This document shows, piece by piece, positions 10,469-32,558 of a stretch of DNA of 64,000 nucleotides. The translations under genes were made by a program, and so were the position numbers. The number at the start of each line of letters is the position of its first letter. The stretch's first letter is position 1. Origin of the DNA: Candidatus Magasanikiibacteriota bacterium (GTDB lineage: Bacteria > Patescibacteriota > Patescibacteriia > Magasanikbacterales > 2-02-FULL-50-9b); assembly GCA_023246755.1 (NCBI GenBank), contig JAHFHU010000003.1:3854-67853 (forward strand), written 5' to 3'. The notes below the pieces were generated by a model. That model worked only from the letters and a program-made list of their open reading frames with translations. It did no database searches and was not told where the DNA came from.

Positions 10469-10598
10469 AAAGTGAGGGATACAACGAGCGTTCACGCTCG
10501 GTTGTCTCCCGAACGCGGACTGGTAGTTACGAGCAGCATGGCTGCGAAGTAACTAAGTCCAAGCGAGCTAGTTAGTAATTCCTCAGTTTATTTTAAAT

Positions 10599-10952: not shown

Positions 10953-10954
10953 AC

Positions 10955-11155: not shown

Positions 11156-11202
11156 AGGTCAGAAATTAGTGTGCGGAGTATAGCAGCAACGGGCTACCCG
11201 CG

Positions 11203-11790: not shown

Positions 11791-11807
11791 GGGGCTGGTT
11801 ATGAGAC

Positions 11808-14965: not shown

Positions 14966-15946
14966 TTACAGACCGCGGATGCGATCGATTTCTTTGTTGA
15001 ACTGCATGAGCCGTGACCGTGCCGCCGTGGCGTAGTCGTTCTCACGCGATGCGTGGATGATGCCGCTGGCGTTGACCGGCAACACGCCGGTGCGCCGCTC
15101 GGTCCAGCCTTCGTGAAGCGCTGGTTCTGCAACGGCACCCTGCGATCCAAAGCCGGGCATGAGGATCGGCATGTAAGCAGCTTGGCTGCGCGCAAGCCGA
15201 AGATTTTGTGCGGTGCAATTGCCACCGATCACCAGTCCACAGTTGCCGTTGTAATTCCATTTTCTGCGAACCGTTGATGCAACTGCTTGCCACCATGTCG
15301 GGAAATCGCCATCACTGAGGCATTGAAATTCTTCGCCGCCTGCGTTACTTGTGCGGCAGACAACGAAAATGCCTTTGTTCGCGCGTTTGAGAAATGGTTC
15401 CATCGCCTCGTGCCCGTGCCACGCGTGGACCGTGATCGCGTCTGCGCCGAGCTCGTCGAACAAGAAATCGGCGTATTGTGCGTTCGTGTTGCCGATGTCT
15501 GCAACCTTGCAGTCAACGATAATCGGTACATCGGGGGCAACTTCTTTGATGTAGGCGACGGTGTTTTTGAGGATATGGAGCCGCGACAGATAAAACGCCC
15601 AGTTGAGTTTGTACGAACCGACCTGATCGTGCGTTGCGGTGATTATTGCCTCAAGGAAATTCGTGTACGCGAAATTGAGGCTCGATTCGTTCACGTGATC
15701 ATCGTATCTGAGTGGCATTTTTGCCCGATCCGGATCGAGTCCAAGGCAGGTGATGAGGCCCGTTGCCTCGCGTGCGTGCCACAATTTCATGAAGTTTCGT
15801 TGCTGATTCGGCATGATTTTTCTCCAAAGAACCATTATGTGCAAACCACGATAGTTTGCAGCTGGGGCGGATTTTAACACGGATTTTTTCGTAGAGCAAA
15901 TTCGGATAATAAAAAGCGGCCACTGCATGTGCGTTTGATTGCACAC
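14966..15946 (-). CDS. pyrF: orotidine 5'-phosphate decarboxylase (long type 2 form)
   Basis: IIVDCKVADIGNT (DxKxxDIxxT catalytic motif); 326 aa length fits type 2. Confidence 0.7.
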   Translation of the reverse strand: MCNQTHMQWPLFIIRICSTKKSVLKSAPAANYRGLHIMVLWRKIMPNQQRNFMKLWHAREATGLITCLGLDPDRAKMPLRYDDHVNESSLNFAYTNFLEAIITATHDQVGSYKLNWAFYLSRLHILKNTVAYIKEVAPDVPIIVDCKVADIGNTNAQYADFLFDELGADAITVHAWHGHEAMEPFLKRANKGIFVVCRTSNAGGEEFQCLSDGDFPTWWQAVASTVRRKWNYNGNCGLVIGGNCTAQNLRLARSQAAYMPILMPGFGSQGAVAEPALHEGWTERRTGVLPVNASGIIHASRENDYATAARSRLMQFNKEIDRIRGL

Positions 15947-16824: not shown

Positions 16825-17997
16825 ATGGAAACAAACCGTATAAAATCACTTCAGATTGGCAGAAATATAGAGCAAAAAGAAGGTTTTAAGGCCTTTGTTC
16901 CTCATCATTTTCCCCCAAAGGAAGGTTTTGACTTTGATCCAAAAATTTTGAAAAAGAATAATGAAGCGACGCGCCTACTTGGTAAGCTCGACGGTATTAC
17001 CAAGCTTCTTCCGGACGCTGACTTTTTTTTGCTCATGTATTTAAGAAAAGATGCGACGTCCTCCAGTCAGATCGAAGGAACGATGGCAACGATGATTGAT
17101 GCAATTGAAGCCGAAGTGCAAGTCAGTGAGCATATTCCAGAAGATGTAGATGATATTTTGCATTACATTACGGCACTCAATTACGGCATCAAGCGAGTGA
17201 CGTCGGATAATTTTCCGATGGCACTCCGCTTTGTGCGGGAACTCCATCAAAAATTAATGCATACGGCGCGAGCTACGCATTTTTCTGATCCCGGAGAATT
17301 CAGAAAATCACAAAATTGGATCGGCGGCACGCGTCCGGGCAACGCGCGATTTGTTCCGCCGCCCGTTAGCGAGATGCATACATCTCTCAATGATCTTGAA
17401 TTATTCATGCATGCTGATGACACAACTCCAACGGTCATTAAGGCGGGGCTCATCCATGCTCAGTTTGAAACGATTCACCCATTTTTAGATGGAAACGGAA
17501 GAACAGGACGCATGTTGATCACGTTTTATTTGTGGAAAGAAGGTTTCTTGGAAAAACCTGTTTTATTTTTGTCGTCTTATTTTAAAAAACATCAAAAATT
17601 GTATTACGAAAAATTGTCTGGATATCACAGTGATGATGCCAAGATTGCTGAATGGGTTGAATTTTTTTTGGATGGTGTGATTGAAATTGCTAATGAAGCT
17701 ATTGCCATCGTTGATAAGATTAGTGTTTTGCGCGAAAAGGATATGGAAAAAGTTCAATCACTCGGCAAGCGAGCTTCGGAAAGTGCGATCATGGTTTTGC
17801 CGAAGCTGTACGGTCAGCCAATTGTTAATAATGCTTTAATCCAGAAATGGACAGGCTTCACTCGTGCGGGGGCGCAAACGGTGATTGATCGATTTATTGC
17901 GTTAGGAATCCTTTCTCCGAAAGATAAGGATAAAAAATATGGTCAATCATACATCTACAAAAAGTATGTTGCGATTTTTGTAGATACGGATCATTGA
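16825..17997 (+). CDS. fic: Fic family protein (AMPylator) with intramolecular inhibitory motif
   Basis: HPFLDGNGRTGRML core Fic motif. N-terminal SSQIEG matches the [ST]xxxE[GN] inhibitory helix of class II Fic. Confidence 0.85.
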   Translation: METNRIKSLQIGRNIEQKEGFKAFVPHHFPPKEGFDFDPKILKKNNEATRLLGKLDGITKLLPDADFFLLMYLRKDATSSSQIEGTMATMIDAIEAEVQVSEHIPEDVDDILHYITALNYGIKRVTSDNFPMALRFVRELHQKLMHTARATHFSDPGEFRKSQNWIGGTRPGNARFVPPPVSEMHTSLNDLELFMHADDTTPTVIKAGLIHAQFETIHPFLDGNGRTGRMLITFYLWKEGFLEKPVLFLSSYFKKHQKLYYEKLSGYHSDDAKIAEWVEFFLDGVIEIANEAIAIVDKISVLREKDMEKVQSLGKRASESAIMVLPKLYGQPIVNNALIQKWTGFTRAGAQTVIDRFIALGILSPKDKDKKYGQSYIYKKYVAIFVDTDH

Positions 17998-18698: not shown

Positions 18699-19532
18699 AT
18701 GAGTAGTCACGCCTTACAATTGCTTCTTCCGAGCGGTGACCCAAACGGGCTTAAGGTTATCAGTCTGAGCGGGTGGGCAGGGAAGTGTTTTATAGTTCCA
18801 CGTACTAATTTAAAACAGCTTAAGGATCGTATTGAAATTGATAAACCAGGGTTATATTTTTTATTTGGTCCTCGTGAGGAGGCTCCTCGGGTATATATTG
18901 GTGAGTCAGAGAGTTTTTATTCACGCATTATAAATCACGACATAAATAAAGATTTTTGGGAGACAGTGCTGATTTTTACCGGCGAGCTTAATCGTGCCGA
19001 TGTAAAATATCTTGAATTTAAAGCGACAACTTTTGCAAAAGAGTCTGCACGTTATTCTGTTGAAAATAAAGTACAGCCACAGGAAAATTCGCTTTCAGAA
19101 TTTGATAAAATTAAGGTTGAACATTTTTTTGAAAATGCGCGTCTTATTTTGCGCACATTTGGCTATGAAATTTTTGAGAAAGCTGCAGAGTCGTTTGCGG
19201 ATAGAGAGTTGTATTATTTAAAGGGTGAATTTTTTGATGCACGTGCGCGAATTTTGGAGGATGGTAGCTTGTTAGTTTTAAAAGGTTCCTTTGCACGCGC
19301 TCGTGAAACGTCATCATTTGATGGTTGGGCGAAGCTTGCACGAGAAGGGTTTTTGGTATCTGGTAAACTAGAGCCAGCTGTAAATCATTACGAATCTTAT
19401 GAATTTATGGAAGATGTAATTTTCAAAAGCCCTAGTGCTGCCGCAGCAACAATTGCGGGCCGCTCTATAAATGGTTGGACAGCATGGAAAAATGAGAAAG
19501 GTATAACGCTGGATGAAAATTTAAGAAAATAA
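18699..19532 (+). CDS. GIY-YIG nuclease family protein with DUF4357-like C-terminal domain
   Basis: GLYFLF..VYIGESESFYSRI GIY-YIG core. Sits immediately upstream of hsdM, as often seen for DUF4357 proteins. Confidence 0.6.
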   Translation: MSSHALQLLLPSGDPNGLKVISLSGWAGKCFIVPRTNLKQLKDRIEIDKPGLYFLFGPREEAPRVYIGESESFYSRIINHDINKDFWETVLIFTGELNRADVKYLEFKATTFAKESARYSVENKVQPQENSLSEFDKIKVEHFFENARLILRTFGYEIFEKAAESFADRELYYLKGEFFDARARILEDGSLLVLKGSFARARETSSFDGWAKLAREGFLVSGKLEPAVNHYESYEFMEDVIFKSPSAAAATIAGRSINGWTAWKNEKGITLDENLRK

Positions 19533-19551: not shown

Positions 19552-21138
19552 ATGAGTAACAAGGATTCAAATTTGAATACGACCAAAGAGCAGGAGCGTT
19601 CAGAATTGCACCGGGCTATTTGGCAGATTGCAAATGATTTACGCGGGAGTGTTGATGGTTGGGATTTCAAGCAATATGTGTTAGGGGTGCTTTTTTATCG
19701 TTTTATCAGCGAAAATCTTACCAACTACATTAATTCCGATGAACGCCGCGCGGGTAAAAAGGATTTTGACTATGCGAACTTGTCAGACAAGGAGGCAGAA
19801 TTTGGGCGAGCTGATACCGTAAAAGAAAAAGGATTTTATATTTTACCAAGTGAACTTTTTGTAAATGTTCGCAAGAATGCCCGCAATGATGCCAACCTTA
19901 ATGAAACTCTCACAACTGTTTTTCGTAACATTGAGAATTCGGCAAAGGGTGCAAACAGCGAAGATGATATCAGAGGCTTGTTTGATGATCTTGATGTGAA
20001 TTCTAATAAATTGGGTGGCACGGTTGAAAAACGAAATCAGAAACTTGCAAAACTTTTTGAATCTATCGGTGACCTTCGTCTGGGTAATTACTCCGACAAC
20101 ACTATTGACGCCTTTGGTGACGCCTACGAATTTTTGATGACCATGTACGCCTCAAACGCCGGTAAGTCCGGGGGTGAGTTCTATACTCCCCAAGAAGTTA
20201 GCGAACTTTTGGCGGAAATCACTACGGTTGGGAAAACAGAGGTGAATAAGGTTTACGATCCAGCCTGCGGTTCTGGTTCCCTACTCCTCAAGTTCGCTAA
20301 AGTCCTTGGTAAAGAAAATGTTCGGCAAGGTTTCTATGGGCAAGAAATTAATCTTACAACCTACAATCTCTGCCGTATTAACATGTTCTTGCACGACATC
20401 AATTACAATAATTTTGATATTGCTCACGGTGATACGCTTATAGATCCGAAACACTGGGACGACGAGCCGTTTGACGCTATTGTCTCCAACCCACCGTATT
20501 CTATACATTGGGAAGGTGATGCAAACCCGCTTCTCATTAATGACCCCCGTTTTTCCCCGGCTGGAGTATTGGCACCAAAGAGTAAGGCCGATCTTGCGTT
20601 TACTATGCACATGCTTGCTTGGCTCTCGACAAGTGGCACTGCGGCGATCGTTGAGTTTCCCGGCGTTCTCTATCGTGGTGGCGCAGAGGGTAAAATAAGA
20701 AAGTATTTGGTAGACAACAATTATGTTGATGCGGTAATTCAACTTCCTCCTGACCTCTTTTTTGGCACAACTATCGCTACCTGTATCATCGTGCTCAAAA
20801 AGAGCAAAAAAGATAACAAAGCGCTTTTCATAGATGCTTCTGCCGAGTTTGTCCGTGGTGGTAACAAAAACAAATTGAGCGAAGTAAATCGGAAAAAGAT
20901 TTTAGACGCTTTTACTACCCGCCAAGACGCGAAGTATTTTGCCAAGCTCGTTGATAATAAAACCATTGCTGAGAACGACTACAATATTGCCGTTTCAAGT
21001 TATGTCGTGGCAGAAGATATGCGCGAGGTGGTAGACATAACCACGCTCAACACAAAAATCGCTAAGATTGTCACAAGGCAAAACGAACTCCGCACAGCGA
21101 TTGATGAGATTGTGGCAGATATTGAAGGTAATAAATAA
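19552..21138 (+). CDS. hsdM: Type I restriction-modification system methyltransferase subunit
   Basis: HsdM N-terminal domain, motif I (DPACGSGSLL) and motif IV NPPY (VSNPPYSIHW). Confidence 0.9.
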   Translation: MSNKDSNLNTTKEQERSELHRAIWQIANDLRGSVDGWDFKQYVLGVLFYRFISENLTNYINSDERRAGKKDFDYANLSDKEAEFGRADTVKEKGFYILPSELFVNVRKNARNDANLNETLTTVFRNIENSAKGANSEDDIRGLFDDLDVNSNKLGGTVEKRNQKLAKLFESIGDLRLGNYSDNTIDAFGDAYEFLMTMYASNAGKSGGEFYTPQEVSELLAEITTVGKTEVNKVYDPACGSGSLLLKFAKVLGKENVRQGFYGQEINLTTYNLCRINMFLHDINYNNFDIAHGDTLIDPKHWDDEPFDAIVSNPPYSIHWEGDANPLLINDPRFSPAGVLAPKSKADLAFTMHMLAWLSTSGTAAIVEFPGVLYRGGAEGKIRKYLVDNNYVDAVIQLPPDLFFGTTIATCIIVLKKSKKDNKALFIDASAEFVRGGNKNKLSEVNRKKILDAFTTRQDAKYFAKLVDNKTIAENDYNIAVSSYVVAEDMREVVDITTLNTKIAKIVTRQNELRTAIDEIVADIEGNK

Positions 21139-21143
21139 AATTT

Positions 21144-23348
21144 ATGAATAAGTTGAGGATCGAATTACAGCATTGTTATGGAATAAAAAAACTTAATCAT
21201 GAGTTTGATTTTTCAAATTGCAAAACCTTTGTAATTTATGCCCCAAATGGAGTAATGAAAACTTCGTTTGCAAAAACTCTTAAAAATATTGCAAAGGGCG
21301 AAAAACCATGTGATCAGACAGATGACACATTGGTTCCGGTTTATAATTTTTTTATTGATGACTCCAATAATCAAATCCAACGGGAAGATATATGTGTCAT
21401 AGAGCCCTATAATAAAAAAGCATTTGATTCTGAAGATAAAGTCCTTACCCTTTTAGCAGACGATGAAACAAGAAAGGAATATTTGACAATATTTAACGAA
21501 ATTGAATCTCTTAAAAAATCTTCTCTTTCTGGATTAAAAAAAATATCAGGTAGTAGCAACTACGAATCTGAAATTATAGAAGCATTTTCTAATCTTGATA
21601 AGAAAAATATTTTTGAAATTTTCGAGGCTATTTTAAACGACATTGAAACCTCAAAAGATTCATTTGAATTTAAATATAATGATGTTTTTGACAAAGCCAA
21701 TAAGGTTAAAAAATTTCTTGCAGACAATTTTACATTGTTGAAAGAATACATTGAAAAATACAATGATCTGATTAGCAAATCTACCTTTTTTGCAAAAAAT
21801 GCTGACCATGTTTTTGGCACAACAGAAGCAAAAATTCTTGGCAAGTCCCTTGAGGGAGATGAATATTTTATTGCTGGGCATAAGCTAGTATTAAAATCTC
21901 ACGGAGACATATCTGCTAAAAATAAATTAGCAGATATAATAGATGAGGAGATTGCAAAAGTTTTTAATGATAAGGGCCTGAAAGATGTCTTTGAGAAAAT
22001 TGATAATTTACTCGACGCTAATAAAGAATTGCAATCCTTTAAAAAGGTTATAGAAAGAGACAATTCGATTTTATTGAGATTAAATGATTACGATGTATTT
22101 AGAAAAGAGGTATGGTTTAGTTTCTTAAAACAAATTGAAACTGGTATAAAATCATTAGTTGAATTATATAATCAAAAAAAGTTTGATTTAGAAAAAATTA
22201 TACAAAAAGCAAAGGACAGTCAATCGCAATGGGAAAGCACTATTAAGGAATTCGAGAACAGATTTGTTAATAACCCATTTACTCTCGAAATTCAAAATAA
22301 GGCGGATGCGATATTAAATGAAAAAACACCAGCAATTGATTTTAAATTTCAAGGAAAAGATATTGAAAGGAATAATTTAATAGAAAATGTATTGAGCCAA
22401 GGAGAAAGACGGGCTTTATATATTTTAAACGTTATTTTTGAGATTAAATCTCGGCAATTACAAAATAAAAAAACGTTGTTTATCATTGATGACATAGCAG
22501 ACTCTTTTGATTATAAAAATAAATATGCCATTGTTGAGTATTTAAATGATTTGTCCAAAGAAGATAATTTTTGCTCAATAATTTTAACTCACAATTTTGA
22601 TTTTTTTAGAACTCTTCAATCAAGGATTTTACAAGATAAAAAATGGGAATATTCGTTTGTTGCCGAGAGACTAAAAGATGAGATTAAGTTAATTAATGCT
22701 GGCAGTAGAAATGTTACCGACCCATTTACCAACTGGAAAGCGGGAGTTAATAATAACGAAAAACATTTAATTGCATGCGTTCCTTTCGTACGTAATTTAA
22801 TTGAATTTAAAGATGGACAAAGCAATGCCCATTATAAGCTTTTGACGCATGCTCTTCATAGAAAGCTTTTGGACGGAATTATTAAGGAAACCGCAGATAT
22901 TAGAATTGCTGATTTACGAGACCCATTTTCATCTGTTTTATCGGGTATTACATTTACATTCACAGACACAAATAAAAAAATTGTAGATATTATCGAGGAA
23001 CAGATCACGGCAATAAAGGGAGCTGAAAATTATGATTCAATTGTTTTGGAAGATAAAATTATTCTTGCCATCGGAATCAGATTGAAAGCGGAAGAATATA
23101 TGTGGTCTCAGGTCACAAACCAAAATCCAATACACGGCTCGCAAACAGGGGTATTATTTGGGAGATATAAACAGGATTTTAAAGACAACGATACTCATAA
23201 AGAGACACTGAAAATTCTTGAGAGCGTCATCATAATGACCCCTGAAAACATACATTTGAATTCTTTTATGTACGAGCCGATTTTAGATATGGGCATAGAT
23301 GAATTAAAGAGTTTGCATGATAAAGTTTGCAATTTAACAAGTACATAA
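21144..23348 (+). CDS. ABC/SMC-type ATPase embedded in the hsd operon (PrrC/RloC-like anticodon-nuclease candidate)
   Basis: Degenerate N-terminal Walker A (IYAPNGVMKTSF), ~370 aa K/E/L-rich predicted coiled-coil insert, ABC signature LSQGERRALYIL, Walker B LFIIDDIADSFD, THN H-loop. C-terminal ~280 aa has no recognised family but carries an R-x3-E...H arrangement (VRNLIEF..NAHYKLLTHALH). Lies between hsdM and hsdS. Confidence 0.55.
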   Translation: MNKLRIELQHCYGIKKLNHEFDFSNCKTFVIYAPNGVMKTSFAKTLKNIAKGEKPCDQTDDTLVPVYNFFIDDSNNQIQREDICVIEPYNKKAFDSEDKVLTLLADDETRKEYLTIFNEIESLKKSSLSGLKKISGSSNYESEIIEAFSNLDKKNIFEIFEAILNDIETSKDSFEFKYNDVFDKANKVKKFLADNFTLLKEYIEKYNDLISKSTFFAKNADHVFGTTEAKILGKSLEGDEYFIAGHKLVLKSHGDISAKNKLADIIDEEIAKVFNDKGLKDVFEKIDNLLDANKELQSFKKVIERDNSILLRLNDYDVFRKEVWFSFLKQIETGIKSLVELYNQKKFDLEKIIQKAKDSQSQWESTIKEFENRFVNNPFTLEIQNKADAILNEKTPAIDFKFQGKDIERNNLIENVLSQGERRALYILNVIFEIKSRQLQNKKTLFIIDDIADSFDYKNKYAIVEYLNDLSKEDNFCSIILTHNFDFFRTLQSRILQDKKWEYSFVAERLKDEIKLINAGSRNVTDPFTNWKAGVNNNEKHLIACVPFVRNLIEFKDGQSNAHYKLLTHALHRKLLDGIIKETADIRIADLRDPFSSVLSGITFTFTDTNKKIVDIIEEQITAIKGAENYDSIVLEDKIILAIGIRLKAEEYMWSQVTNQNPIHGSQTGVLFGRYKQDFKDNDTHKETLKILESVIIMTPENIHLNSFMYEPILDMGIDELKSLHDKVCNLTST

Positions 23349-23349
23349 C

Positions 23350-24534
23350 ATGACAAACAATCAATCAAAAATTGAAAAATTGATCAGCAAACTCTGCCCG
23401 AATGGAGTGGAGTTTAAGGAGTTAGGTGAACTTTTGGATTACGAACAGCCGGGCAATTTCATCGTTAGATCAACTGAATATAATGATAATCTAGCAACGC
23501 CAGTATTGACGGCTGGGAAAAGTTTTATTCTTGGTTATACAGATGAAGTAGACGGTATATATAAAGCGAGCCAAGAATATCCGGTAATTATTTTTGACGA
23601 TTTTACGACTTCGTTCCACTGGGTAGATTTTCAATTTAAAGTTAAATCTTCCGCGATGAAAATGTTACGGAATAAAAAGGATGTTGATGTAAGCTTTAAA
23701 TTTATCTATTTTGCGATGAGATGTATACATTATGTTCCTTCAGATCATGCACGTCATTGGATTTCTCAATATTCAAAATTTAAAATCCCTCTTCCACCCC
23801 TTGAAATCCAAGAAGAGATTGTCAAAATTCTTAATAGTTTTACAGAGCTGGAGGCAGAGCTGGAGGCAGAGCTGGAGGCAAGAGAATCGCAATATAAGCA
23901 TTATCGAAAAAAGCTTTTAAGTATTAATGGTGATAGCGTGCAGTGGAAAACATTGGGAGAAGTTGCGGAGTACCGTCGAGGTTCTTTCCCGCAACCCTAT
24001 GGTGAAACTAAATGGTATGGAGGTGAAGGCGCTATGCCATTTGTTCAAGTGGCTGACGTTGGAGAAAATATGCGACTTGTTGAAAATACTAAACAGAAAC
24101 TTTCTAAGTTAGCCCAGTCTAAGAGTGTATTTGTACCTTCCGGAACAGTTATTGTAACCTTACAAGGCAGTATTGGACGAGTTGCCGTTACTCAATATGA
24201 TAGTTATGTTGATCGTACACTTGCAATTTTTGAAAGTTTTAAAAACAAAATTAATAAAAAATATTTTGCATATCAATTAGAAAGTAAATTTAGTGTCGAA
24301 AAAGAAAATGCGCGTGGAAGTACGATAAAAACAATTACAAAAGAAGAATTCACAAAATTTAAAATTCCAGTTCCATCACTTGAAATGCAGGATTATATAG
24401 TTACCAAACTAGATGCATTTAATTTACTTTTGAATGACATTTCAATTGGTTTGCCGGCAGAACTCTCGGCTCGCAGGCAACAATACGAATATTACCAAGG
24501 GAAGCTTTTAACTTTCAAAGAATATGCCAAATAA
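23350..24534 (+). CDS. hsdS: Type I restriction-modification system specificity subunit
   Basis: Two target-recognition domains separated by a conserved central helix containing (ELEA)x3. C-terminal conserved region (QQYEYYQGKLL). Overlaps hsdR start. Confidence 0.85.
   Translation: MTNNQSKIEKLISKLCPNGVEFKELGELLDYEQPGNFIVRSTEYNDNLATPVLTAGKSFILGYTDEVDGIYKASQEYPVIIFDDFTTSFHWVDFQFKVKSSAMKMLRNKKDVDVSFKFIYFAMRCIHYVPSDHARHWISQYSKFKIPLPPLEIQEEIVKILNSFTELEAELEAELEARESQYKHYRKKLLSINGDSVQWKTLGEVAEYRRGSFPQPYGETKWYGGEGAMPFVQVADVGENMRLVENTKQKLSKLAQSKSVFVPSGTVIVTLQGSIGRVAVTQYDSYVDRTLAIFESFKNKINKKYFAYQLESKFSVEKENARGSTIKTITKEEFTKFKIPVPSLEMQDYIVTKLDAFNLLLNDISIGLPAELSARRQQYEYYQGKLLTFKEYAK
23845..23880 (+). repeat. 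3 x 12-bp perfect tandem repeat (GAGCTGGAGGCA) encoding (ELEA)3 in the HsdS central conserved region
   Basis: Read directly from sequence. Confidence 0.8.
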
Positions 24535-27500
24535 TAAATACAATCTGGTTGCGGAGAATCCACAGAGCACTGTCGTGGGTGAGTATGTAGCGGAAGGTGT
24601 GCGCGTTGCTCATTATCAAAGTGAGGCAGATTTGGAGCGAGCTTTTATCAAACAACTTGAAACACAAGCGTACGAATATCTACCCATCACCTCTGAAGCT
24701 GATTTAATACTCAACCTGCGTAAGCAACTGGGGAAACTCAATGATTTTACTTTTACCGATAGCGAATGGGAACATTTTTTTGTCAGTGAGCTTGCCAACC
24801 CAAATCAAAGCATTGCCGAAAAGACCTCCACCATTCAAGAAGACCACATCAAAAACCTGACGCGCGAAGATGGCACGACCAAGAATGTGTACCTCATAAA
24901 AAAGGATAACATTCACGACAATAGTTTGCAGGTGATCAATCAATACGCGACCGAAGACGGTCAGCGTGCCAATCGCTATGATGTGACGGTGCTTGTGAAC
25001 GGCTTGCCTTTGGTGCATATTGAGCTCAAACGACGTGGAGTGGCTATTGCCGAGGCGTTCAATCAGATCAATCGTTACAGCCGAGAAAGTTTTTGGGCTG
25101 CGTCGGGACTTTTTGAATATGTGCAGTTATTTATTATTTCCAACGGTACACATACTAAGTACTATAGTAACACTGTCCGTTCAGAGCACATTAAGGAAGC
25201 CGGTGAAGGTGCGGTGAAAAAAGGCAAACGTTCGAGTAATAGTTTTGAATTTACCAGCTGGTGGGCAGATGCTACCAATCGACCGATTACGGATCTGATG
25301 GATTTTGGGAAAACATTTTTTGCCAAGCACGCACTCCTCAATATCTTGACCAAGTATTGTGTATTCACAACCGATAGACAGCTTTTAGTAATGCGACCAT
25401 ATCAGATTGTCGCAACCGAGAGAATACTTAGTCGTATTGAAGTAAGTACTAATTACAAGAAACTCGGCACGGTCGAGGCTGGCGGTTACATTTGGCATAC
25501 GACCGGATCAGGAAAAACTTTGACCAGTTTCAAAACCGCACAACTTGTAAGTAAATTATCTTACGTAGATAAGGTTATTTTTGTGGTTGACCGCAAGGAT
25601 TTGGATTATCAAACAATGCGAGAATACGATAAGTTTGAAAAAGGTGCAGCAAATAGTAATACAAGTACAGCAGTTTTGACGCGTCAGCTAGGAGATTCGA
25701 ATTCACACATCATTATTACCACTATTCAGAAGCTCGATCGTTTTATCGGACGCAATGCCGGACACGCTATTTTTGATGGTCATGTAGTGCTTATCTTTGA
25801 TGAATGTCATCGTTCTCAGTTTGGGGATATGCACGCTGCTATTACCAAAACATTCAAGAATTACAATTTGTTTGGTTTTACTGGTACTCCGATTTTTGCC
25901 AAGAATGCGTCTGCTGGTGGACGACCAGAATTGAAAACGACCGAGCAGGCTTTTGGTGAAAAGTTGCATACCTACACGATTGTTAATGCTATCGCTGATA
26001 AAAATGTTTTGCCGTTTAAAGTGGATTATGTCTCTACGGTTAGAGAAGCAGAGAATATTGAAGATGCACAGGTAAGAGATATTGATCGTGAAGCAGTGCT
26101 GGCTTCGCCGGAACGCCTGGCAAATATCGTTGGTTACATTCGCGAGCATTTTGACCAAAAGACCAAGCGGAATAGTTTTTATAAATTGAACGATCGCCGG
26201 TTAGCCGGGTTCAATTCTATTTTTGCCGTTTCGTCTATTGATGTGGCAAAAAAGTATTACGCTGAATTCAAAAAACAACTTGATGGTGTGCCAAGCGATA
26301 AGCAGCTCAAAGTGGCAACGATATATAGCTTTGGAGTTAACGATGAGGATGCGGATGGAATGATCGACGAAAATTCAGAGGATACGAACGGACTTGATGT
26401 GAGCTCAAGAGATTTTCTTGATAGCGCAATTACTGATTACAATGCGATGTTTGGAACATCCTACGATACCTCGTCTGAGAAGTTTCAGAATTATTACAAA
26501 GACGTGAGCTTAAAAATGAAAAATCGTGAGATTGATGTGCTGATCGTGGTCAATATGTTTTTGACCGGCTTTGATGCTACAACGCTGAACACGCTTTGGG
26601 TGGACAAAAACTTGAGACTACATGGACTCTTGCAGGCATTTTCCCGCACCAATCGAATATTAAATAGTGTAAAGGCTTTTGGTAACATTGTCTGTTTCCG
26701 TAATTTAGAGAAGGCAACAAACGAATCTATTGCTCTTTTTGGAAATAAAGAAGCGGGTGGCGTGGTACTTCTTAAGTCATACGATGAGTATTACAACGGC
26801 TTCAAAGATGGCGATAAGGAAGTGCGTGGATACGCAAGTTTGGTGGCAGAGCTCACGGAAAAATTTCCGATTGGTGAGCAAATTTTGGGCGAGCAAAACC
26901 AAAAAGATTTTATCAAGCTCTATGGTGGAATTTTGCGAGTGCGCAACATTCTGACTACCTTCGACGAATTTATTGGCAACGAGATTTTAAGTGAGCGCGA
27001 TGTGCAGGATTATCACAGTATGTACATCGATCTTTACAATGAATTCCGTAAAGGTGCTGAGATTGAACAGGAAAATATTAATGATGATCTTGTTTTTGAG
27101 ATGGAGCTTATCAAGCAAGTAGAAATAAATATTGATTTTGTATTAGCTCTTATTAAGAGATACCACGAAGATCATAATCAGGATCGTGAGATTTTGGCTG
27201 ATATCAATAAAGCGATTGATTCAAGTGTAGAGCTACGAAATAAAAAGGATCTTATCAATCAATTCATTACATCACTTGATATCCATTCAGTCGTTGAGGA
27301 GGATTGGCAGAAATTCGTGGACAAAAAAAAGATTGAGGAGCTGGAAAAAATTATTGATAATGAAGGTTTGGATCACGATGCAACATTTGCGTTTGTACGA
27401 AATTCTTTTCGTGATGGAAGTGTGGCAACGACTGGTACAGCAATAACCAAAGTTTTACCGCCAGTAACTCGTTTTTCTCCGACCGGCGAACGAACTCAAA

Positions 27501-27580
27501 AGCGTGAAAGTGTAATTAGTAAGCTCACAAGTTTCTTTGAAAGGTTCTTCGATATTTCTGGTGGAAAGTTTTCAGATTAA
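24524..27580 (+). CDS. hsdR: Type I restriction enzyme R subunit (SF2 helicase + nuclease)
   Basis: Walker A HTTGSGKTLTSF, DEAH-box FDECHRSQ, 1018 aa, directly follows hsdS. Confidence 0.9.
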   Translation: MPNNKYNLVAENPQSTVVGEYVAEGVRVAHYQSEADLERAFIKQLETQAYEYLPITSEADLILNLRKQLGKLNDFTFTDSEWEHFFVSELANPNQSIAEKTSTIQEDHIKNLTREDGTTKNVYLIKKDNIHDNSLQVINQYATEDGQRANRYDVTVLVNGLPLVHIELKRRGVAIAEAFNQINRYSRESFWAASGLFEYVQLFIISNGTHTKYYSNTVRSEHIKEAGEGAVKKGKRSSNSFEFTSWWADATNRPITDLMDFGKTFFAKHALLNILTKYCVFTTDRQLLVMRPYQIVATERILSRIEVSTNYKKLGTVEAGGYIWHTTGSGKTLTSFKTAQLVSKLSYVDKVIFVVDRKDLDYQTMREYDKFEKGAANSNTSTAVLTRQLGDSNSHIIITTIQKLDRFIGRNAGHAIFDGHVVLIFDECHRSQFGDMHAAITKTFKNYNLFGFTGTPIFAKNASAGGRPELKTTEQAFGEKLHTYTIVNAIADKNVLPFKVDYVSTVREAENIEDAQVRDIDREAVLASPERLANIVGYIREHFDQKTKRNSFYKLNDRRLAGFNSIFAVSSIDVAKKYYAEFKKQLDGVPSDKQLKVATIYSFGVNDEDADGMIDENSEDTNGLDVSSRDFLDSAITDYNAMFGTSYDTSSEKFQNYYKDVSLKMKNREIDVLIVVNMFLTGFDATTLNTLWVDKNLRLHGLLQAFSRTNRILNSVKAFGNIVCFRNLEKATNESIALFGNKEAGGVVLLKSYDEYYNGFKDGDKEVRGYASLVAELTEKFPIGEQILGEQNQKDFIKLYGGILRVRNILTTFDEFIGNEILSERDVQDYHSMYIDLYNEFRKGAEIEQENINDDLVFEMELIKQVEINIDFVLALIKRYHEDHNQDREILADINKAIDSSVELRNKKDLINQFITSLDIHSVVEEDWQKFVDKKKIEELEKIIDNEGLDHDATFAFVRNSFRDGSVATTGTAITKVLPPVTRFSPTGERTQKRESVISKLTSFFERFFDISGGKFSD

Positions 27581-27587
27581 ATCTGTA

Positions 27588-29051
27588 ATGAAACACATGT
27601 CTGCTTCCTTCACCCCCTCCCTCTTCTACAAATTCTCCACCTGCCCGCACTGGATCTGGCACGATTTTTTCGGTAACCCCGCAAATAAAATCGAAGTCCC
27701 AGCACTCGCGCAAAAGTTGATCGATCAGGGTGTATTGCATGAAGAAGAATATATCAAAGGATTGAATTTTGTTTCAGTGACATTAAAAAATTCAACCGAT
27801 GCGTTCGCGGCAACGCTCGCGCTTATGCAAAGCGGCACGGATCTGATTTATCAGGGTGAAATTCAGTACGAAGAAAACAACATTTTGTACCATGGCCGCC
27901 CTGACCTGCTCGAAAAGCGACCAGGCACGTCGAAATTCGGCGCCTACTATTACGCGCCCATTGATATTAAATCGTCGAGCAAGCTCGATAAGAAACATAA
28001 GCTACAACTGACGCTCTACGCAACTATTCTTGAACAGATGCAGGGCGTGTTTCCCGAGGAGACGGCGATCATCAATCGCGCGCACGAACGCATTCCATTC
28101 ACCATCGCGCCAAAAGATCGCGCGGAAACGCAGAAACAAATGAGCAGCATTCTTGCAGTGATGTCAGGCGAAAAGCCGCCGCTCAAACTCGCAGGCAGTT
28201 GCAAACAAAGTCCGTGGTACCCTGAGTGCGTGCACGATGCAGAGGAAGCGCAGGATATCGCGCTGCTGTATAAGCTCGACAATCGCGCGTGTGCGGCGCT
28301 GCGTGCAGAGGGGATTGTATCGATTCATGATGCGGCGCAGATGGACATCGTACGTCTGCCAAAAATTCCATTCGCGAGTCAGAAAATTCTTGCGCGCGTG
28401 AAAGTGCAGGCGCAGTCGCTTCTCGATGGAGAATTGAAATGGCTTGCGCGCCCATCGCTGCCACACGCGCCGCTCCAACTCTATTTTGATATTGAAGGCG
28501 ATCCACTGCTCGGCGTCGATTACTTGTTCGGGTTGTGGGTGTGCGGCGACGCAGCGCACGCCTACGCACACACGGGTCACGTTCGGTTCGACGCGGAGTC
28601 GAGCGATTATTTTATTTATTTTGTTGCAGAGACGCCGGAGGATGAAGGGGCGATGTGGGCCGCGTTTTTGCAGTGGATCGAGGCGCTGCCGACGGGGAAG
28701 TATGACACGTTTCACTACGCAGATTACGAACGTTCACACACCGGCGCGCTTGCTGCGAAATACGGCACGTCCGCGGCGTTCGAGGAATTTGTGACGACGT
28801 ATGTTGACCTGATGAAGGTGATGAGCGCGTCTGTTGTGTTGCCATTATATTTTTATTCGATCAAAGATATCGCAAAATCTCGTTTCTTGAATTTCAAATG
28901 GCGTCACGAAAAAGCAGGTGGCGCGCAAAGTATTTTTTGGTACGAAGAATGGCTCGAGAAACGCGACTCGGGGATTTTAAAAGATATTGTAGACTATAAC
29001 GAGGACGATGTGCGGGCGACGAAGGCGTTGTATGGGTGGCTAATAACTTAA
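27588..29051 (+). CDS. RecB-family nuclease, TM0106-type (N-terminal PD-(D/E)xK/Cas4-like domain plus C-terminal DnaQ-like fold)
   Basis: N-terminal FSTCPHWIW, GRPDLL, IDIKSS motifs; C-terminal LYFDIEGDP (DxE exonuclease-like). Start set at the MKHMS ATG just after the hsdR stop. Confidence 0.5.
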   Translation: MKHMSASFTPSLFYKFSTCPHWIWHDFFGNPANKIEVPALAQKLIDQGVLHEEEYIKGLNFVSVTLKNSTDAFAATLALMQSGTDLIYQGEIQYEENNILYHGRPDLLEKRPGTSKFGAYYYAPIDIKSSSKLDKKHKLQLTLYATILEQMQGVFPEETAIINRAHERIPFTIAPKDRAETQKQMSSILAVMSGEKPPLKLAGSCKQSPWYPECVHDAEEAQDIALLYKLDNRACAALRAEGIVSIHDAAQMDIVRLPKIPFASQKILARVKVQAQSLLDGELKWLARPSLPHAPLQLYFDIEGDPLLGVDYLFGLWVCGDAAHAYAHTGHVRFDAESSDYFIYFVAETPEDEGAMWAAFLQWIEALPTGKYDTFHYADYERSHTGALAAKYGTSAAFEEFVTTYVDLMKVMSASVVLPLYFYSIKDIAKSRFLNFKWRHEKAGGAQSIFWYEEWLEKRDSGILKDIVDYNEDDVRATKALYGWLIT

Positions 29052-29074
29052 GTTATATAAATGACGGGAGGTCT

Positions 29075-29100
29075 AATTATCCACAATTCAGTGGATAATT
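29075..29100. promoter_or_regulatory. perfect inverted pair of DnaA-box-like 9-mers (AATTATCCAC-aattca-GTGGATAATT) abutting a TTGACA-n17-TATAGT promoter
   Basis: TTATCCACA equals the consensus DnaA box. Promoter at ~29110..29139 precedes the NYN gene. Confidence 0.35.
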
Positions 29101-29202
29101 CATGCCTTGACACCAAAACTTTCTCGATCTATAGTTACTTCATCGTCGCCTGCTCCGCCGTCACTGGCCTGGGCAGGTTTTCCATATTATATTCTAAACA
29201 CT

Positions 29203-29838
29203 ATGAGGAGGGCATGTGTTTTTGTTGATGGGAGCAATTTCTATCATCGCGTTTTAAAAAATTTAGGTATTCAGGAGTCAAATTTTGATTTCAATGCATT
29301 TGCGCAATTTTTGGTTTCAAGCTATGCACCTTCTGAAAATCAGTTTCGACATTATTCTGGCGTCATCGCAGGAGTTTCATTTCATGAGATGTCAGACTCC
29401 GCAAAAGATCATCAGAAAACTATTCGGTCACTCATGAGTCTCGATTGTTGGTCAGTCATTACGGCAAAATTGAGAACTCGCAAGGAACATATAGTCATCG
29501 ATGATCGGGTGGATAATCATGTTCGATTGAAAGAGTTAGGTGTGGCCAAAATTTGTTTTTCAAGAGAGCGTGAAAAAACAATTGATATGAAAATCGGTCT
29601 TGATATGATGTTGGGCGCACTCGATAACCTCTACGATGTTGCAATTTTAATAAGTTCAGATTCAGATTTGGTACCCGTTTGTGAATTGGTAAAAAGCAGA
29701 TTTTGGAAACGTGTAGAATACGTTGGATTTCATATTATTGCACCAGACACCACTGTGCCGACAAAAGCTTTGATGTATGCAACTGATAGCCAAAGAATTT
29801 TTGGTCCTGATGATATTAAACGATTTGTCAGGCGATAA
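29203..29838 (+). CDS. NYN-domain (LabA-like PIN-fold) protein
   Basis: Start at MRRACVFVDGSNFYHRV (NYN DGxN motif). The upstream 32 codons of the track ORF overlap a promoter-like sequence. Confidence 0.55.
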   Translation: MRRACVFVDGSNFYHRVLKNLGIQESNFDFNAFAQFLVSSYAPSENQFRHYSGVIAGVSFHEMSDSAKDHQKTIRSLMSLDCWSVITAKLRTRKEHIVIDDRVDNHVRLKELGVAKICFSREREKTIDMKIGLDMMLGALDNLYDVAILISSDSDLVPVCELVKSRFWKRVEYVGFHIIAPDTTVPTKALMYATDSQRIFGPDDIKRFVRR

Positions 29839-30344: not shown

Positions 30345-30797
30345 ATGCCCTGCATTTTTTGCTCCATCGTTTCCGGCGAAGCGCCGTCACACAAAATTTG
30401 GGAGGATGAAAATCATCTCGCGTTTTTGTCGATTTTTCCGAACACGCGCGGCACGACCGTGGTGATTCCGAAACAGCATGCGGCGAGTTATGTTTTTGCC
30501 GTCGCGCCAAAAATCATGCACGACCTGATGGATGCGGCGGCGAGAGTCGCGGCGCTGATCGACACGCGCCTCCCGAATGTCGGTCGCACCGGCCTCATCT
30601 TCGAAGGTTTCGGGGTCAACCATTTACACGCAAAATTATTTCCGCTCCACGACACCGCGGCACCCGATTGGCAACCGGTTAATTCGTCTGTGACCAAAAT
30701 GTTTGAAACCTACGAAGGCTATCTTTCGTCGCACGATGGCCCGCGCGCGGATGACAACGAGCTCGCGGAAATCGCGCGGGTGTTGCGTGGCACTTGA
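30345..30797 (+). CDS. HIT-family (histidine triad) hydrolase
   Basis: N-terminal CIFCSI..HKIWEDE and a histidine triad variant VNHLHAKLFP. Confidence 0.8.
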   Translation: MPCIFCSIVSGEAPSHKIWEDENHLAFLSIFPNTRGTTVVIPKQHAASYVFAVAPKIMHDLMDAAARVAALIDTRLPNVGRTGLIFEGFGVNHLHAKLFPLHDTAAPDWQPVNSSVTKMFETYEGYLSSHDGPRADDNELAEIARVLRGT

Positions 30798-31682: not shown

Positions 31683-32558
31683 ATGTATCAAAAAAATTTT
31701 GAGCAGTGGAATTTAATTAAGCAGCAGATAAATTATGAAAACCGTTCAGTACGAATTCGTGCGGGCGATGTTTGTTGGATTTTTGTTGGTGTAAATGTTG
31801 GGAGTGAAATTGATGGTAAGGGCGAATCTTTTCTTCGCCCAGCTTTGATTTTGAATGTTATGGGTGATGATTTGGTTCTAATCATTCCTCTCACGTCAAA
31901 ACAAAAACAATTACCGCGCTACATTCCACTCGAAATTCAAGATCGTACGAGCTTTTTATGTCTTCATCAATTAAAGGTAGTTTCTCAAAATCGTATTTTA
32001 CGTCGTATCGAGCATATTTCTGACTCGCGTCTCGCCTCCGTTCGTCATAACGTGCTATTATTCCACAACTTCACACCGACGCCTAAACCAAAACCTATGG
32101 CTCACATTCACGAACTCATCGATTTCACCGTGTCTTGCATGATTCTTCATCCAACCGAACCAAAAATTTTGTTAATTAATCACAAAATACTCAACACATG
32201 GCTGCCAATTGGTGGGCACATCGAACTCAATGAAGATCCGGACGAAGCGATCGCACGCGAAGTCGCTGAAGAGTGTGGTCTTCCGATCGAAATGATTTCG
32301 CGACGTCACTCCGGCGAATATCCGGAAACTAAAATGTTGCTCATCCCTGAAACTGTTGACATCCACACGATCAACACCGCGCACCGCCACATCAATTTCG
32401 GCTACCACGCACGTGCGCTCAGCGCAAACCCAAAACTTGCGCCCGAGGAGCATCACGATATTCAATGGTTCGGTGCAGACGAACTTGCCGACCCGAATTT
32501 TAACATCAAGCCCGCGGTCCGCGTCTACGCACTTGAATTTTTGCAAAAAAATGCGTAA
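31683..32558 (+). CDS. PemK/MazF-fold toxin-like domain fused to a C-terminal NUDIX hydrolase domain
   Basis: Residues 1-125 are paralogous to 30892..31290 (about 60 % identity). After a PTPKPKP linker comes the Nudix box GGHIELNEDPDEAIAREVAEECGL (GX5EX7REUXEEXGU). Confidence 0.6.
   Translation: MYQKNFEQWNLIKQQINYENRSVRIRAGDVCWIFVGVNVGSEIDGKGESFLRPALILNVMGDDLVLIIPLTSKQKQLPRYIPLEIQDRTSFLCLHQLKVVSQNRILRRIEHISDSRLASVRHNVLLFHNFTPTPKPKPMAHIHELIDFTVSCMILHPTEPKILLINHKILNTWLPIGGHIELNEDPDEAIAREVAEECGLPIEMISRRHSGEYPETKMLLIPETVDIHTINTAHRHINFGYHARALSANPKLAPEEHHDIQWFGADELADPNFNIKPAVRVYALEFLQKNA

What the first reader, a model, noticed from the sequence alone, without database searches (positions are those of the whole stretch)
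21144..23348. PrrC/RloC-like ABC-ATPase with an uncharacterised effector domain wedged between hsdM and hsdS
The protein has an SMC/ABC-type ATPase head with a long predicted coiled-coil insert, i.e. RloC/PrrC-like architecture. Its motifs are a Walker A variant (NGVMKTS), the signature LSQGERR, Walker B IIDDIADSFD and a THN H-loop.

The Walker A glycine-lysine core is degenerate: Val-Met replaces the Ser-Gly of the canonical NGSGK[ST] P-loop. The ~280-aa C-terminal domain matches no family I can name. It does carry an R-x3-E...H constellation (VRNLIEF...HYKLLTHALH), reminiscent of the Arg/Glu/His anticodon-nuclease triad of PrrC.

Its position inside a Type I RM operon mirrors the prr locus, where an anticodon nuclease is kept latent by the Hsd complex. 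That points to an RM-coupled abortive-infection module with a possibly new effector.
Basis: partly seen in the sequence, partly recalled or inferred. Interest (0 to 1): 0.8.

Follow-up and report, generated by a model that had tools for sequence, protein, structure and literature searches.

The report
RloC-like defence ATPase inside restriction operon
This gene encodes a 734-residue ATPase of the PrrC/RloC type with an uncharacterised helical tail, wedged into a type I restriction operon; it belongs to a family already listed as an untested phage-defence candidate (PADLOC PDC-S46), so it is a reasonable but not new lead.

Summary
It sits in a tight hsdM-X-hsdS-hsdR operon.

It matches the PADLOC model PDC-S46 end to end (E 1e-228). 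PDC-S46 is one of 145 untested candidates that Payne et al. 2024 predicted by the same guilt-by-embedding logic, so the idea is already catalogued.

The ATPase is an SMC/Rad50-like ABC head with a 281-residue helical insert. It falls in the PrrC/RloC (Pfam AAA_13) clade. The odd P-loop NG.MK[TS]S is invariant in 81 relatives, so it is a family trait rather than decay.

R550 and H572 are invariant and E554 is 88% conserved. A second set, R646/E650/H704, is fully invariant.

Only 15 of 80 relatives lie near hsd genes, against 48 of 49 for PrrC. Two operons carry both this gene and a PrrC.

Most likely it is an autonomous RloC-like abortive-infection protein. RNase activity is inferred, not shown.

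The parts
21144..23348 (+). Complete ORF, 734 aa plus stop. Member of the PADLOC candidate family PDC-S46.
   Evidence: PADLOC PDC-S46 E 1.1e-228, residues 1-731 against profile positions 1-718 of 719. More than 7500 homologues in the protein database.
21144..21428 (+). ABC ATPase N-lobe (residues 1-95), with the deviant Walker A YAPNGVMKTS at 21237-21266.
   Evidence: AlphaFold model, pLDDT about 90. N35, M38, K39 and S41 are 81/81 and G36 is 80/81. hhalign to the PrrC P-loop region gives 85-93% probability.
21429..22277 (+). Helical insert (residues 96-378) splitting the ATPase head. A conserved F..GH.L.LK element lies at 21867-21896. There is no CxxC.
   Evidence: Helices at 107-373 in the model. 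Foldseek matches SMC, Rad50 and cohesin heads with coiled-coil stubs. 0 of 81 sequences have CxxC in the insert.
22278..22700 (+). ABC ATPase C-lobe (residues 379-519): signature LSQGERR 22392-22412, Walker B and D-loop LFIIDDIADSFDYKNK 22476-22523, H-loop LTHN 22584-22595.
   Evidence: S418, G420, E421, D449, D450, D456, H483 and N484 are 81/81. AAA_13 hits in relatives cover this part.
22701..23345 (+). C-terminal all-helical domain (residues 520-734), HEPN-like by fold ranking and the presumed effector or sensor. Conserved blocks: PFVRNLIEF 22782-22808, LT.LH.K 22842-22865, E.K...R...E 23049-23093, V..MTPENIHLNSFMYEPILD 23226-23288.
19552..21138 (+). hsdM, upstream operon partner (5-nt gap).
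   Evidence: N6_Mtase 2e-114 and HsdM_N. 78-88% identical HsdM proteins flank the homologues in L003, L004, L006, L007 and L011.
23350..24534 (+). hsdS, downstream operon partner (1-nt gap).
   Evidence: Methylase_S 3e-33, two stretches.
24524..27580 (+). hsdR. It overlaps hsdS by 11 nt.
   Evidence: HSDR_N, SWI2_SNF2, T1R_D3-like and EcoR124_C.

Best explanation
The gene encodes a single-protein defence module of the ABC-ATPase-plus-effector kind, closest in design to RloC.

The proposed mechanism has three parts:
- An SMC/Rad50-like nucleotide-binding head, split by a 281-residue helical insert, acts as the sensor and switch.
- The 215-residue C-terminal HEPN-like helical domain is the output. 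It is most probably a metal-independent RNase acting on tRNA or another RNA, which stops translation and aborts infection.
- The protein can work on its own, since most relatives have no fixed partner. In this lineage it has been captured between hsdM and hsdS and is co-transcribed with the type I restriction enzyme, so it backs up restriction.

What is shown: the ORF, the operon, the ABC fold and motifs, membership of PDC-S46, kinship of the ATPase with AAA_13/PrrC, the helical HEPN-like tail with about a dozen invariant polar residues, and the pattern of genomic contexts.

What is inferred: nucleotide-dependent switching, nuclease activity and its substrate, the trigger, and the abortive outcome.
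For: - Full-length PDC-S46 match. That family was defined from genes embedded in type I RM, BREX or DISARM systems and is untested.
- The model has pLDDT 86.5, and the best Foldseek matches are SMC, Rad50 and cohesin heads and retron-associated ATPases.
- ABC motifs are invariant in 81 sequences that are 35-100% identical.
- Eight of 60 relatives pass or approach the Pfam AAA_13 threshold over the coiled-coil and C-lobe part.
- P-loop, Walker B and D-loop wording is shared with PrrC: YA.NG..KT and IDD...S.D.
- Invariant residues in the C-domain are R550, T568, H572, K638, R646, E650, T699, H704, N706, E711 and D715.
- RNLIE (550-554) mimics the catalytic RNLYE of PrrC (R320, E324) at the same distance from the H-loop: 67 against 69 residues.
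- R646-x3-E650-x53-H704 nearly fits the RloC pattern R-x3-E-x36-52-H (PMC2610378).
- Neighbours of relatives are RM types I, II and III, RhuM, Fic, DUF2130, Mrr-nSTAND3 and recombinases, with no constant partner.
- The gene stands alone on a conjugative plasmid.
- Its GC content is 30.2%, against 42.8% and 40.9% for hsdM and hsdR, which marks it as an inserted cassette.
Against: - No canonical Rx4-6H motif is conserved in the C-domain. The HEPN survey (PMC3710099) regards HEPN domains without it as probably non-catalytic.
- Profile comparison of the C-domain with the PrrC nuclease domain is not significant and is matched by 5 of 30 shuffles.
- The glycine before the P-loop lysine is replaced by Met, which breaks the classical Walker A pattern. 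Nucleotide binding is therefore assumed, not shown.
- I could not inspect model coordinates, so I do not know whether the invariant residues cluster into one site.
- No member of the family has been tested. No paper mentions PDC-S46 in its text, and the name is absent from the supplements held for the Payne preprint.
Confidence: 0.45

Rival explanations
1. The tail is a non-catalytic HEPN-like sensor or adaptor. On this reading the C-terminal domain binds a ligand, an RNA, a phage protein or the Hsd complex. The ATPase then acts by itself, for example by clamping nucleic acid in the manner of SMC or Rad50, or by modulating the neighbouring restriction enzyme. No nuclease activity resides in this protein.
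For: - No Rx4-6H motif is conserved, and HEPN domains lacking it are proposed to be non-catalytic binders (PMC3710099).
- The most conserved block, TPENIHLNSFMYEP, lies in a loop of low model confidence, as an interface or a disorder-to-order element would.
- The same hsd lineage keeps the gene in the same slot across phyla.
- It coexists with a real PrrC, which could be the actual effector in those operons.
Against: - Most relatives (65 of 80) have no hsd genes within 10 kb, and some are solitary on plasmids. An Hsd-dependent adaptor role therefore cannot be general.
- Twelve invariant polar or charged residues (R, H, E, K, N, D, T) across 35% identity is more typical of a catalytic centre than of a binding surface.
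Confidence: 0.25
2. The C-domain is an enzymatic effector of another kind. The invariant H704, N706, E711 and D715 loop, together with K638, R646 and E650, would form a metal-dependent DNase, or a site that modifies or depletes nucleotides, rather than a HEPN-type RNase.
For: - A His, Asn, Glu and Asp cluster is invariant in 81/81 sequences, in the strongest conservation block of the whole protein.
- No Pfam, NCBIfam or PDB sequence match constrains the chemistry.
- ABC ATPases in defence pair with many effector types (bioRxiv 10.1101/2024.01.29.577857).
Against: - Fold ranking points to HEPN and not to any known DNase fold.
- The domain is purely helical, without the beta-beta-alpha or alpha/beta cores of common metal nucleases.
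Confidence: 0.15
3. This is the first reader's reading: a PrrC-type latent anticodon nuclease. It would be held inactive by the Hsd complex and released when a phage anti-restriction protein disables that complex.
For: - Operon embedding with 5-nt and 1-nt gaps.
- RNLIE...H resembles the PrrC triad.
- The ATPase belongs to the same clade.
- In close relatives the 4-gene cassette is conserved.
Against: - The PrrC model gives no match, while the control PrrC scores 3e-148.
- The slot differs: between hsdM and hsdS, or elsewhere, whereas all PrrC loci with both flanks have the gene between hsdS and hsdR.
- hsd is linked in only 15 of 80 loci, against 48 of 49 for PrrC by the same method.
- It co-occurs with PrrC in L132 and L138.
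- The spacing from E554 to H572 is 17 residues, against 31 in PrrC (36-52 in RloC).
- E554 is not invariant.
Confidence: 0.1
4. The gene is not a defence gene. It would be an SMC-like maintenance or mobile-element function that merely hitch-hikes in variable regions.
For: - It occurs on 27 plasmids and next to recombinases and integrases.
- It is annotated only as a hypothetical protein.
Against: - The most frequent neighbours are RM and other defence genes.
- It has been inserted repeatedly and independently into unrelated type I operons, whose HsdM proteins are only 27% identical.
- Payne et al. confirmed seven of nine embedded candidates that they tested.
Confidence: 0.05

Closest known systems
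PADLOC PDC-S46, a single-gene phage defence candidate (Payne et al., bioRxiv 10.1101/2024.01.29.577857; PADLOC-DB v2)
   Same: The window protein is a full-length member (E 1e-228, profile positions 1-718 of 719).
   Different: Nothing differs. PDC-S46 is a name, not a mechanism. It is among the 145 untested candidates, and no text I could search describes its domains.
RloC, a wobble-nucleotide-excising anticodon nuclease (Davidov and Kaufmann 2008, PMC2610378)
   Same: - Size class: 658-897 aa against 734 aa.
- An ABC ATPase head split by a long helical insert, with a C-terminal extra domain.
- The ATPase falls in Pfam AAA_13 for part of the family.
- RM linkage is only occasional: 8/73 for RloC and 15/80 here.
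- The invariant R-x3-E...H set R646/E650/H704 has spacing x53, against x36-52 in RloC.
   Different: - No CxxC zinc hook in any of 81 sequences.
- The AAA_13 match stops before the nuclease part.
- Ser does not precede the His.
- The P-loop has Met in place of Gly.
- tRNase activity is untested.
PrrC, the tRNA-Lys anticodon nuclease of the prr locus (PMC1484252)
   Same: - ABC motifs are worded alike: YAFNGTGKT against YAPNGVMKT, and FIDDPVSSLD against IIDDIADSFD.
- RNLYE against RNLIE, at the same offset after the H-loop.
- Residence inside a type I hsd operon.
   Different: - PrrC is 340-416 aa and has no insert.
- It is always arranged hsdM-hsdS-prrC-hsdR (hsd detected in 48/49 loci).
- It has an Rx6H (R349...S355-H356) that is missing here.
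- C-domain homology is not significant.
- The two proteins coexist in L132 and L138.
Other ABC-HEPN fusions and RM-linked HEPN proteins (Anantharaman et al. 2013, PMC3710099), such as the APECO1_4465 and ERFG_01251 groups
   Same: An ABC ATPase with a C-terminal HEPN-type domain. The survey describes such genes as often lying in R-M operons with RhuM-like or Fic/Doc genes. That matches this window (Fic at 16825-17997) and relatives L134 and L137.
   Different: I could not obtain those sequences to test identity. This domain lacks the Rx4-6H motif that those groups retain.
HEC-01 to HEC-04 and other defence ABC ATPases (Septu PtuA, Gabija GajA, PARIS AriA, Lamassu LmuB)
   Same: The logic is the same: an ABC ATPase sensor coupled to a toxic effector, often embedded in other defence systems. 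Foldseek also lists chains of retron IA and Ec83 complexes that appear to be the ATPase subunits.
   Different: No PADLOC hit to any of them at E <= 0.01. Their effectors are TOPRIM, NERD, PIN or HNH domains, not an all-helical domain.

Membership tests
PADLOC PDC-S46 | Full-length match to the family HMM | tested here: met
   E 1.1e-228, 759.5 bits, residues 1-731 against profile positions 1-718 of 719. The C-terminal part alone gives 1.8e-77.
ABC ATPase, SMC/Rad50-like | ABC fold with Walker A, signature, Walker B, D-loop and H-loop | tested here: met
   Foldseek matches SMC, Rad50 and cohesin heads at E about 1e-5, probability 1.0. All motifs are present and invariant. Walker A is deviant: Met replaces the Gly before Lys.
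PrrC | Match to a PrrC family model, including the nuclease region | tested here: not met
   No PADLOC PrrC hit even at E <= 10 for residues 473-734, and none at 0.01 for the whole protein. The control PrrC (L129) scores 3.1e-148.
PrrC | Compact protein of about 340-416 aa without a coiled-coil insert | tested here: not met
   734 aa, with a median insert of 281 residues.
PrrC | Catalytic triad R320-x3-E324...S-H356 in a homologous C-domain | tested here: inconclusive
   - RNLIE is present. It aligns to RNLYE when the alignment is anchored on the H-loop (hhalign 67-89% probability).
- C-domain-only alignments give E 0.04-0.19, equalled by 5 of 30 shuffles.
- E554 is 88% conserved, and H572 lies 17 residues after it rather than 31.
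PrrC | Constant embedding between hsdS and hsdR | tested here: not met
   Here the gene lies between hsdM and hsdS. hsd genes are within 10 kb in 15 of 80 family loci, against 48 of 49 PrrC loci by the same phmmer method.
PrrC / RloC | Anticodon-loop cleavage of tRNA | not testable with these tools
   This needs biochemistry.
RloC (Pfam AAA_13) | AAA_13 profile match | tested here: inconclusive
   The window protein has no hit at E <= 0.01. Eight of 60 relatives do hit, with L027 at 65.9 bits and L072 at 40 bits against a cut-off of 36. These matches cover only profile positions about 308-604 of 713, which is the ATPase part.
RloC | CxxC zinc hook at the apex of the insert | tested here: not met
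   0 of 81 sequences have CxxC in the insert, and no conserved Cys occurs there.
RloC | C-terminal R-x3-E-x36-52-H motif | tested here: inconclusive
   R646-x3-E650-x53-H704 is invariant (81/81) but lies one residue outside the published range, and no Ser precedes the His. R550-x3-E554-x17-H572 does not fit (PMC2610378).
HEPN superfamily | Four-helix up-down bundle fold | tested here: inconclusive
HEPN superfamily (catalytic members) | Conserved Rx4-6H motif | tested here: not met
   No aligned R...H pair at spacing 4-6 is present in 20 or more of the 81 sequences. 58 of 81 have no such pattern anywhere in the domain.

The most novel reading that the evidence does not exclude
PDC-S46 is a distinct class of RM-associated sentinel. 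Its deviant-P-loop ABC ATPase drives a non-canonical HEPN-like domain that lacks Rx4-6H and uses an R/E/H/N constellation, giving a new RNase or other toxic chemistry. It would monitor a different signal from PrrC. That would explain why the two occupy separate slots of the same type I operon (hsdM-S46-hsdS-prrC-hsdR in L132 and L138), making a three-layer defence cassette.
Probability: 0.15. Interest if true: 0.7.

Novelty: new member of a known kind. Interest (0 to 1): 0.4.

Why it matters
If the family works as proposed, it would add a widespread single-gene abortive-infection system. It was found in at least 444 of the species genomes scanned, across bacteria and archaea, and on 27 plasmids. 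It would also extend the PrrC/RloC paradigm to a tail domain that lacks the canonical HEPN catalytic motif.

The recurrent operons that hold both this gene and PrrC offer a natural system for asking how several suicide modules are wired to one restriction enzyme.

For this window itself the result is mainly annotation. The gene is an instance of a catalogued but untested candidate, lying inside a defence island of about 14 kb.

Tried and rejected
1. The AlphaFold-database fold search (afdb50) was not available on the machine. No comparison with predicted PrrC or RloC structures was therefore possible, and PrrC has no solved structure.
2. Profile-profile tests of the C-domain, and of each half of it, against PrrC gave E 0.04-0.19. 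I first used 31 PrrC sequences recovered through the LARP peptide pattern, then a 91-sequence set that included divergent PrrCs. Five of 30 block-shuffled controls reached E <= 0.044, so I do not claim sequence homology of the tails.
3. I looked for an internal duplication by comparing half 1 with half 2. The result was E 0.13, not significant.
4. I looked for a constant partner gene by clustering all ORFs within 6 kb in 80 loci and by Pfam scans of the immediate neighbours. There is none.
5. I searched paper texts and the supplements of the Payne preprint for 'PDC-S46' or 'S46' and found nothing.
6. The exact-sequence look-up of the window protein's own contig returned nothing, so the source organism is not established. 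The nearest relatives are Patescibacteria/CPR MAGs.
7. A sequence search of the PDB with the family profile gave no meaningful hit.
8. I could not read model coordinates, so the 3-D clustering of the invariant residues was not examined.
Full report

Yes. The ORF 21144..23348 (+) is 734 codons long and is the only long ORF over that span. Every quoted motif is present:
- YAPNGVMKTS, residues 32-41
- LSQGERR, 417-423
- LFIIDDIADSFD, 445-456
- LTHN, 481-484
- PFVRNLIEF, 547-555
- HYKLLTHALH, 563-572

The flanking genes are hsdM (19552-21138), hsdS (23350-24534) and hsdR (24524-27580) by strong Pfam and PADLOC matches. The gene is separated from hsdM by 5 nt and from hsdS by 1 nt, and hsdS overlaps hsdR by 11 nt. 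The four genes therefore form one tight operon.

**2. What family is it?**

Pfam and NCBIfam give only sub-threshold SMC_N and RecF signals. The PADLOC library, however, matches the protein end to end to PDC-S46 (E 1.1e-228, profile positions 1-718 of 719).

[quoted passage not shown] They were added to PADLOC without testing (bioRxiv 10.1101/2024.01.29.577857). No paper text, and none of the held supplements of that preprint, mentions PDC-S46 by name.

The family is large. More than 7500 database proteins match it. It is found on 27 plasmids and in one metagenomic phage record, annotated almost always as 'hypothetical protein'.

**3. Anatomy**

An AlphaFold2 model built on 74 homologues has mean pLDDT 86.5. 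It divides as follows:
- Residues 1-95 and 379-519 form an ABC ATPase head.
- Residues 96-378 form a helical insert of about 15 helices, with a small beta element at a conserved F..GH.L.LK apex.
- Residues 520-734 form an all-helical domain.

Foldseek against the PDB returns heads of cohesin, condensin, SMC and Rad50, and chains of retron IA/Ec83 complexes, at E about 1e-5.

I aligned 81 sequences that are 35-100% identical. In that alignment:
- The deviant P-loop is invariant: Y32, N35, M38, K39 and S41 are 81/81 and G36 is 80/81.
- The signature S418, G420 and E421 are invariant.
- Walker B and D-loop residues D449, D450 and D456 are 81/81, and D453 is 80/81.
- The H-loop H483 and N484 are invariant.

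The Gly-to-Met change before the lysine is therefore a fixed family trait under selection, not decay. Whether it changes nucleotide preference cannot be told here.

**4. Relation of the ATPase to PrrC and RloC**

I recovered authentic PrrC genes by scanning metagenomes for DNA encoding the published LARP peptide KYGDSNKSFSY (PMC1950546). The 396-aa product of L129 has the exact EcoPrrC numbering of K46, K168, K171, D222, H251, R320, E324 and H356. It scores 3e-148 on the PADLOC PrrC model.

PrrC and the window protein word their motifs alike:
- YAFNGTGKT against YAPNGVMKT
- LSKGEES against LSQGERR
- FIDDPVSSLD against IIDDIADSFD

hhalign gives 85-93% probability over the P-loop region and 67-89% over the stretch from the H-loop onward.

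Eight of 60 diverse family members hit Pfam AAA_13, the RloC/PrrC model. The best scores are 65.9 and 40 bits against a cut-off of 36. All these matches end near profile position 600 of 713, before the nuclease part. The window protein itself does not reach E 0.01.

The ATPase therefore belongs to the PrrC/RloC clade, and the tail is the part that differs.

**5. The C-terminal domain**

The extra domain is 215 residues long, not about 280. A separate model has pLDDT 89.5 and pTM 0.88, with ten helices.

The defining catalytic motif Rx4-6H is absent, however. HMMER finds no PrrC, AAA_13 or other family in the tail. hhalign of tail against PrrC tail gives E 0.04-0.19, which 5 of 30 block-shuffled controls equal. 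Sequence homology of the tails is thus unproven.

What the tail does show is a dense set of invariant polar residues:
- R550 is 81/81, N551 is 94% and E554 is 88%. The wording RNLIE compares with RNLYE in PrrC, 67 residues after the H-loop His against 69 in PrrC.
- T568 and H572 are 81/81, and K574 is 96%.
- K638, R646 and E650 are 81/81.
- In the block V.[LI]MTPENIHLNSFMYEP[IL].D, residues T699, H704, N706, F708, M709, E711, P712 and D715 are all 81/81. This block sits in a loop of low model confidence between two helices.

An exhaustive HMMER search with the tail finds 973 cluster representatives. Nearly all of the best 150 are proteins of about 720-740 aa with the domain at the C-terminus. 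The tail is therefore not a promiscuous module.

**6. Genomic context**

I searched 80 loci from different species, with up to 10 kb on each side, using the window's HsdM, HsdS and HsdR as phmmer queries. hsd genes were found in 15 of them. The same method finds hsd in 48 of 49 PrrC loci. PrrC lies between hsdS and hsdR wherever both flanks are present, and the full order hsdM-hsdS-prrC-hsdR is seen wherever hsdM is captured. The difference is therefore real and not a sensitivity artefact.

Clustering of neighbours and Pfam scans show no constant partner. The commonest neighbours are:
- type I, II and III RM genes
- RhuM
- DUF2130
- Mrr-nSTAND3
- C5 and N6 methylases
- serine recombinases and integrases

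On a conjugative Acinetobacter plasmid the gene is solitary.

Within the window's own sub-clade the embedding is persistent. L003, L004, L006, L007 and L011 carry hsdM-X-hsdS-hsdR. Their HsdM proteins are 78-88% identical to the window's and their HsdR proteins 67-82% (no full-length HsdR match in L003, where hsdR is cut by the contig end), while X is only 48-60% identical.

Look-ups of seven closer database relatives (61-85% identical) gave these arrangements:
- hsdM-X-hsdS-hsdR-DUF2130 (L130, L131)
- hsdM-RhuM-RhuM-X-hsdS (L134)
- hsdM-RhuM/Fic-RhuM-hsdS-X-Fic (L137)
- DpnII-type RM followed by X (L139)
- hsdM-X-hsdS-[AAA_13 protein]-hsdR, seen twice (L132, L138)
- no RM genes nearby, only a DUF4145 gene upstream (P0063)

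The 384-aa AAA_13 protein of L132 is a genuine divergent PrrC. It is 36% identical to the control PrrC (E 8e-68) and carries R-x3-E and RxxxxxSH.

Other embedded cases (L022, L035, L050) involve type I systems whose HsdM is only 27% identical to the window's, so they are independent captures.

The gene's GC content is 30.2% (GC3 25.6%), against 42.8% for hsdM, 40.9% for hsdR and 48.2% for the window. That marks it as an inserted cassette.

**7. Interpretation**

The best-supported reading is an autonomous, single-protein defence module built like RloC. An ABC ATPase with a helical insert acts as sensor and switch, and a HEPN-like tail acts as effector. In this lineage the module is parked inside a type I RM operon, where co-transcription and co-transfer make it a back-up to restriction.

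The defence role rests on guilt by association. Payne et al. confirmed seven of nine embedded candidates that they tested. RNase activity rests on architecture, weak fold similarity and motif resemblance, so I give it less than even odds.

The main rival is that the tail is a non-catalytic HEPN-like binder, because it lacks Rx4-6H. A PrrC-type 'latent under Hsd' mechanism is unlikely as a general rule for three reasons: the variable slot, the low family-wide linkage, and coexistence with PrrC. A physical link to Hsd in this particular clade is not excluded.

**8. Novelty and score**

The window gene is a new member of a family that is already in a public defence database as an untested candidate. 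That family looks like a variant of the RloC/PrrC ABC-HEPN theme.

What this analysis adds:
- placement of the ATPase in the AAA_13 clade
- the true domain boundary
- the HEPN-like fold ranking
- the list of invariant residues, including a better triad candidate
- a quantified contrast with PrrC linkage
- the recurrent S46-plus-PrrC operons

None of this would strongly surprise a specialist, and no mechanism is demonstrated. I score interest at 0.4.

Noticed in passing
L132:4420-13538 and L138:8-8645: Two independent type I operons carry both an S46 homologue (between hsdM and hsdS) and a PrrC-type AAA_13 gene (between hsdS and hsdR). The arrangement is hsdM-S46-hsdS-prrC-hsdR. The L132 protein is 36% identical to the control PrrC, at E 8e-68.
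   Followed up: partly
window 18699-19532 (+): A 277-aa DUF4357/RAMA protein lies 20 nt upstream of hsdM. It matches another PADLOC candidate family, PDC-S14 (E 8e-81). Weak matches to this protein also lie beyond hsdR in PrrC loci L086 and L123.
   Followed up: no
window 27537-29838 (+): Directly after hsdR, and overlapping it by 44 nt, comes a TM0106-family RecB-like nuclease with Cas4-like and RNase_H_2 domains. A NYN-domain protein follows at 29107-29838. These are possibly further defence genes of the same island.
   Followed up: no
window 16825-17997 (+); also L134 and L137: A Fic/DOC protein lies upstream of the operon. Fic and RhuM genes recur inside the hsd operons of close relatives. 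This matches the 'R-M plus RhuM or Fic/Doc' neighbourhoods described for ABC-HEPN proteins in PMC3710099.
   Followed up: partly
window 31683-32558 (+): A 291-aa ORF combines a PemK/MazF toxin domain (residues 27-124) with a NUDIX hydrolase domain (150-273), an unusual fusion.
   Followed up: no
window 38324-38727 (-) and 10392-10468 (-): A tmRNA gene with tag peptide AVANAFAPTFVPAFA, and a tRNA-Asp(GTC). The defence island (about 16.1-29.9 kb) lies between a pyrF-like gene (14966-15946) and a HIT gene (30345-30797). It is not next to either RNA gene.
   Followed up: no
window 20000-24000 versus 42000-52000: Composition is very uneven. GC is 0.33-0.38 across the S46 and hsdS genes and 0.57-0.60 at 42-52 kb, against a window mean of 0.48.
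   Followed up: partly
L005:8306-17062: In this Patescibacteria chromosome the hsdM, hsdS and hsdR homologues are broken into many short ORFs, while the embedded S46 homologue (10001-12247) is intact. This could reflect decay of the RM genes around a retained S46, or assembly errors.
   Followed up: no
proteins P0173, P0211, P0216, P0240, P0253, P0257: Several cluster representatives of 207-219 aa consist of the C-terminal domain only, starting at about residues 5-19. They may be contig-end fragments, or split genes in which the ATPase and the tail are separate.
   Followed up: no
window 21867-21896 (residues 242-251): At the apex of the helical insert lies a conserved F..GH.L.LK element. H246 is invariant. 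It sits where RloC and Rad50 carry their CxxC zinc hook and may be a different dimerisation or sensing element.
   Followed up: no
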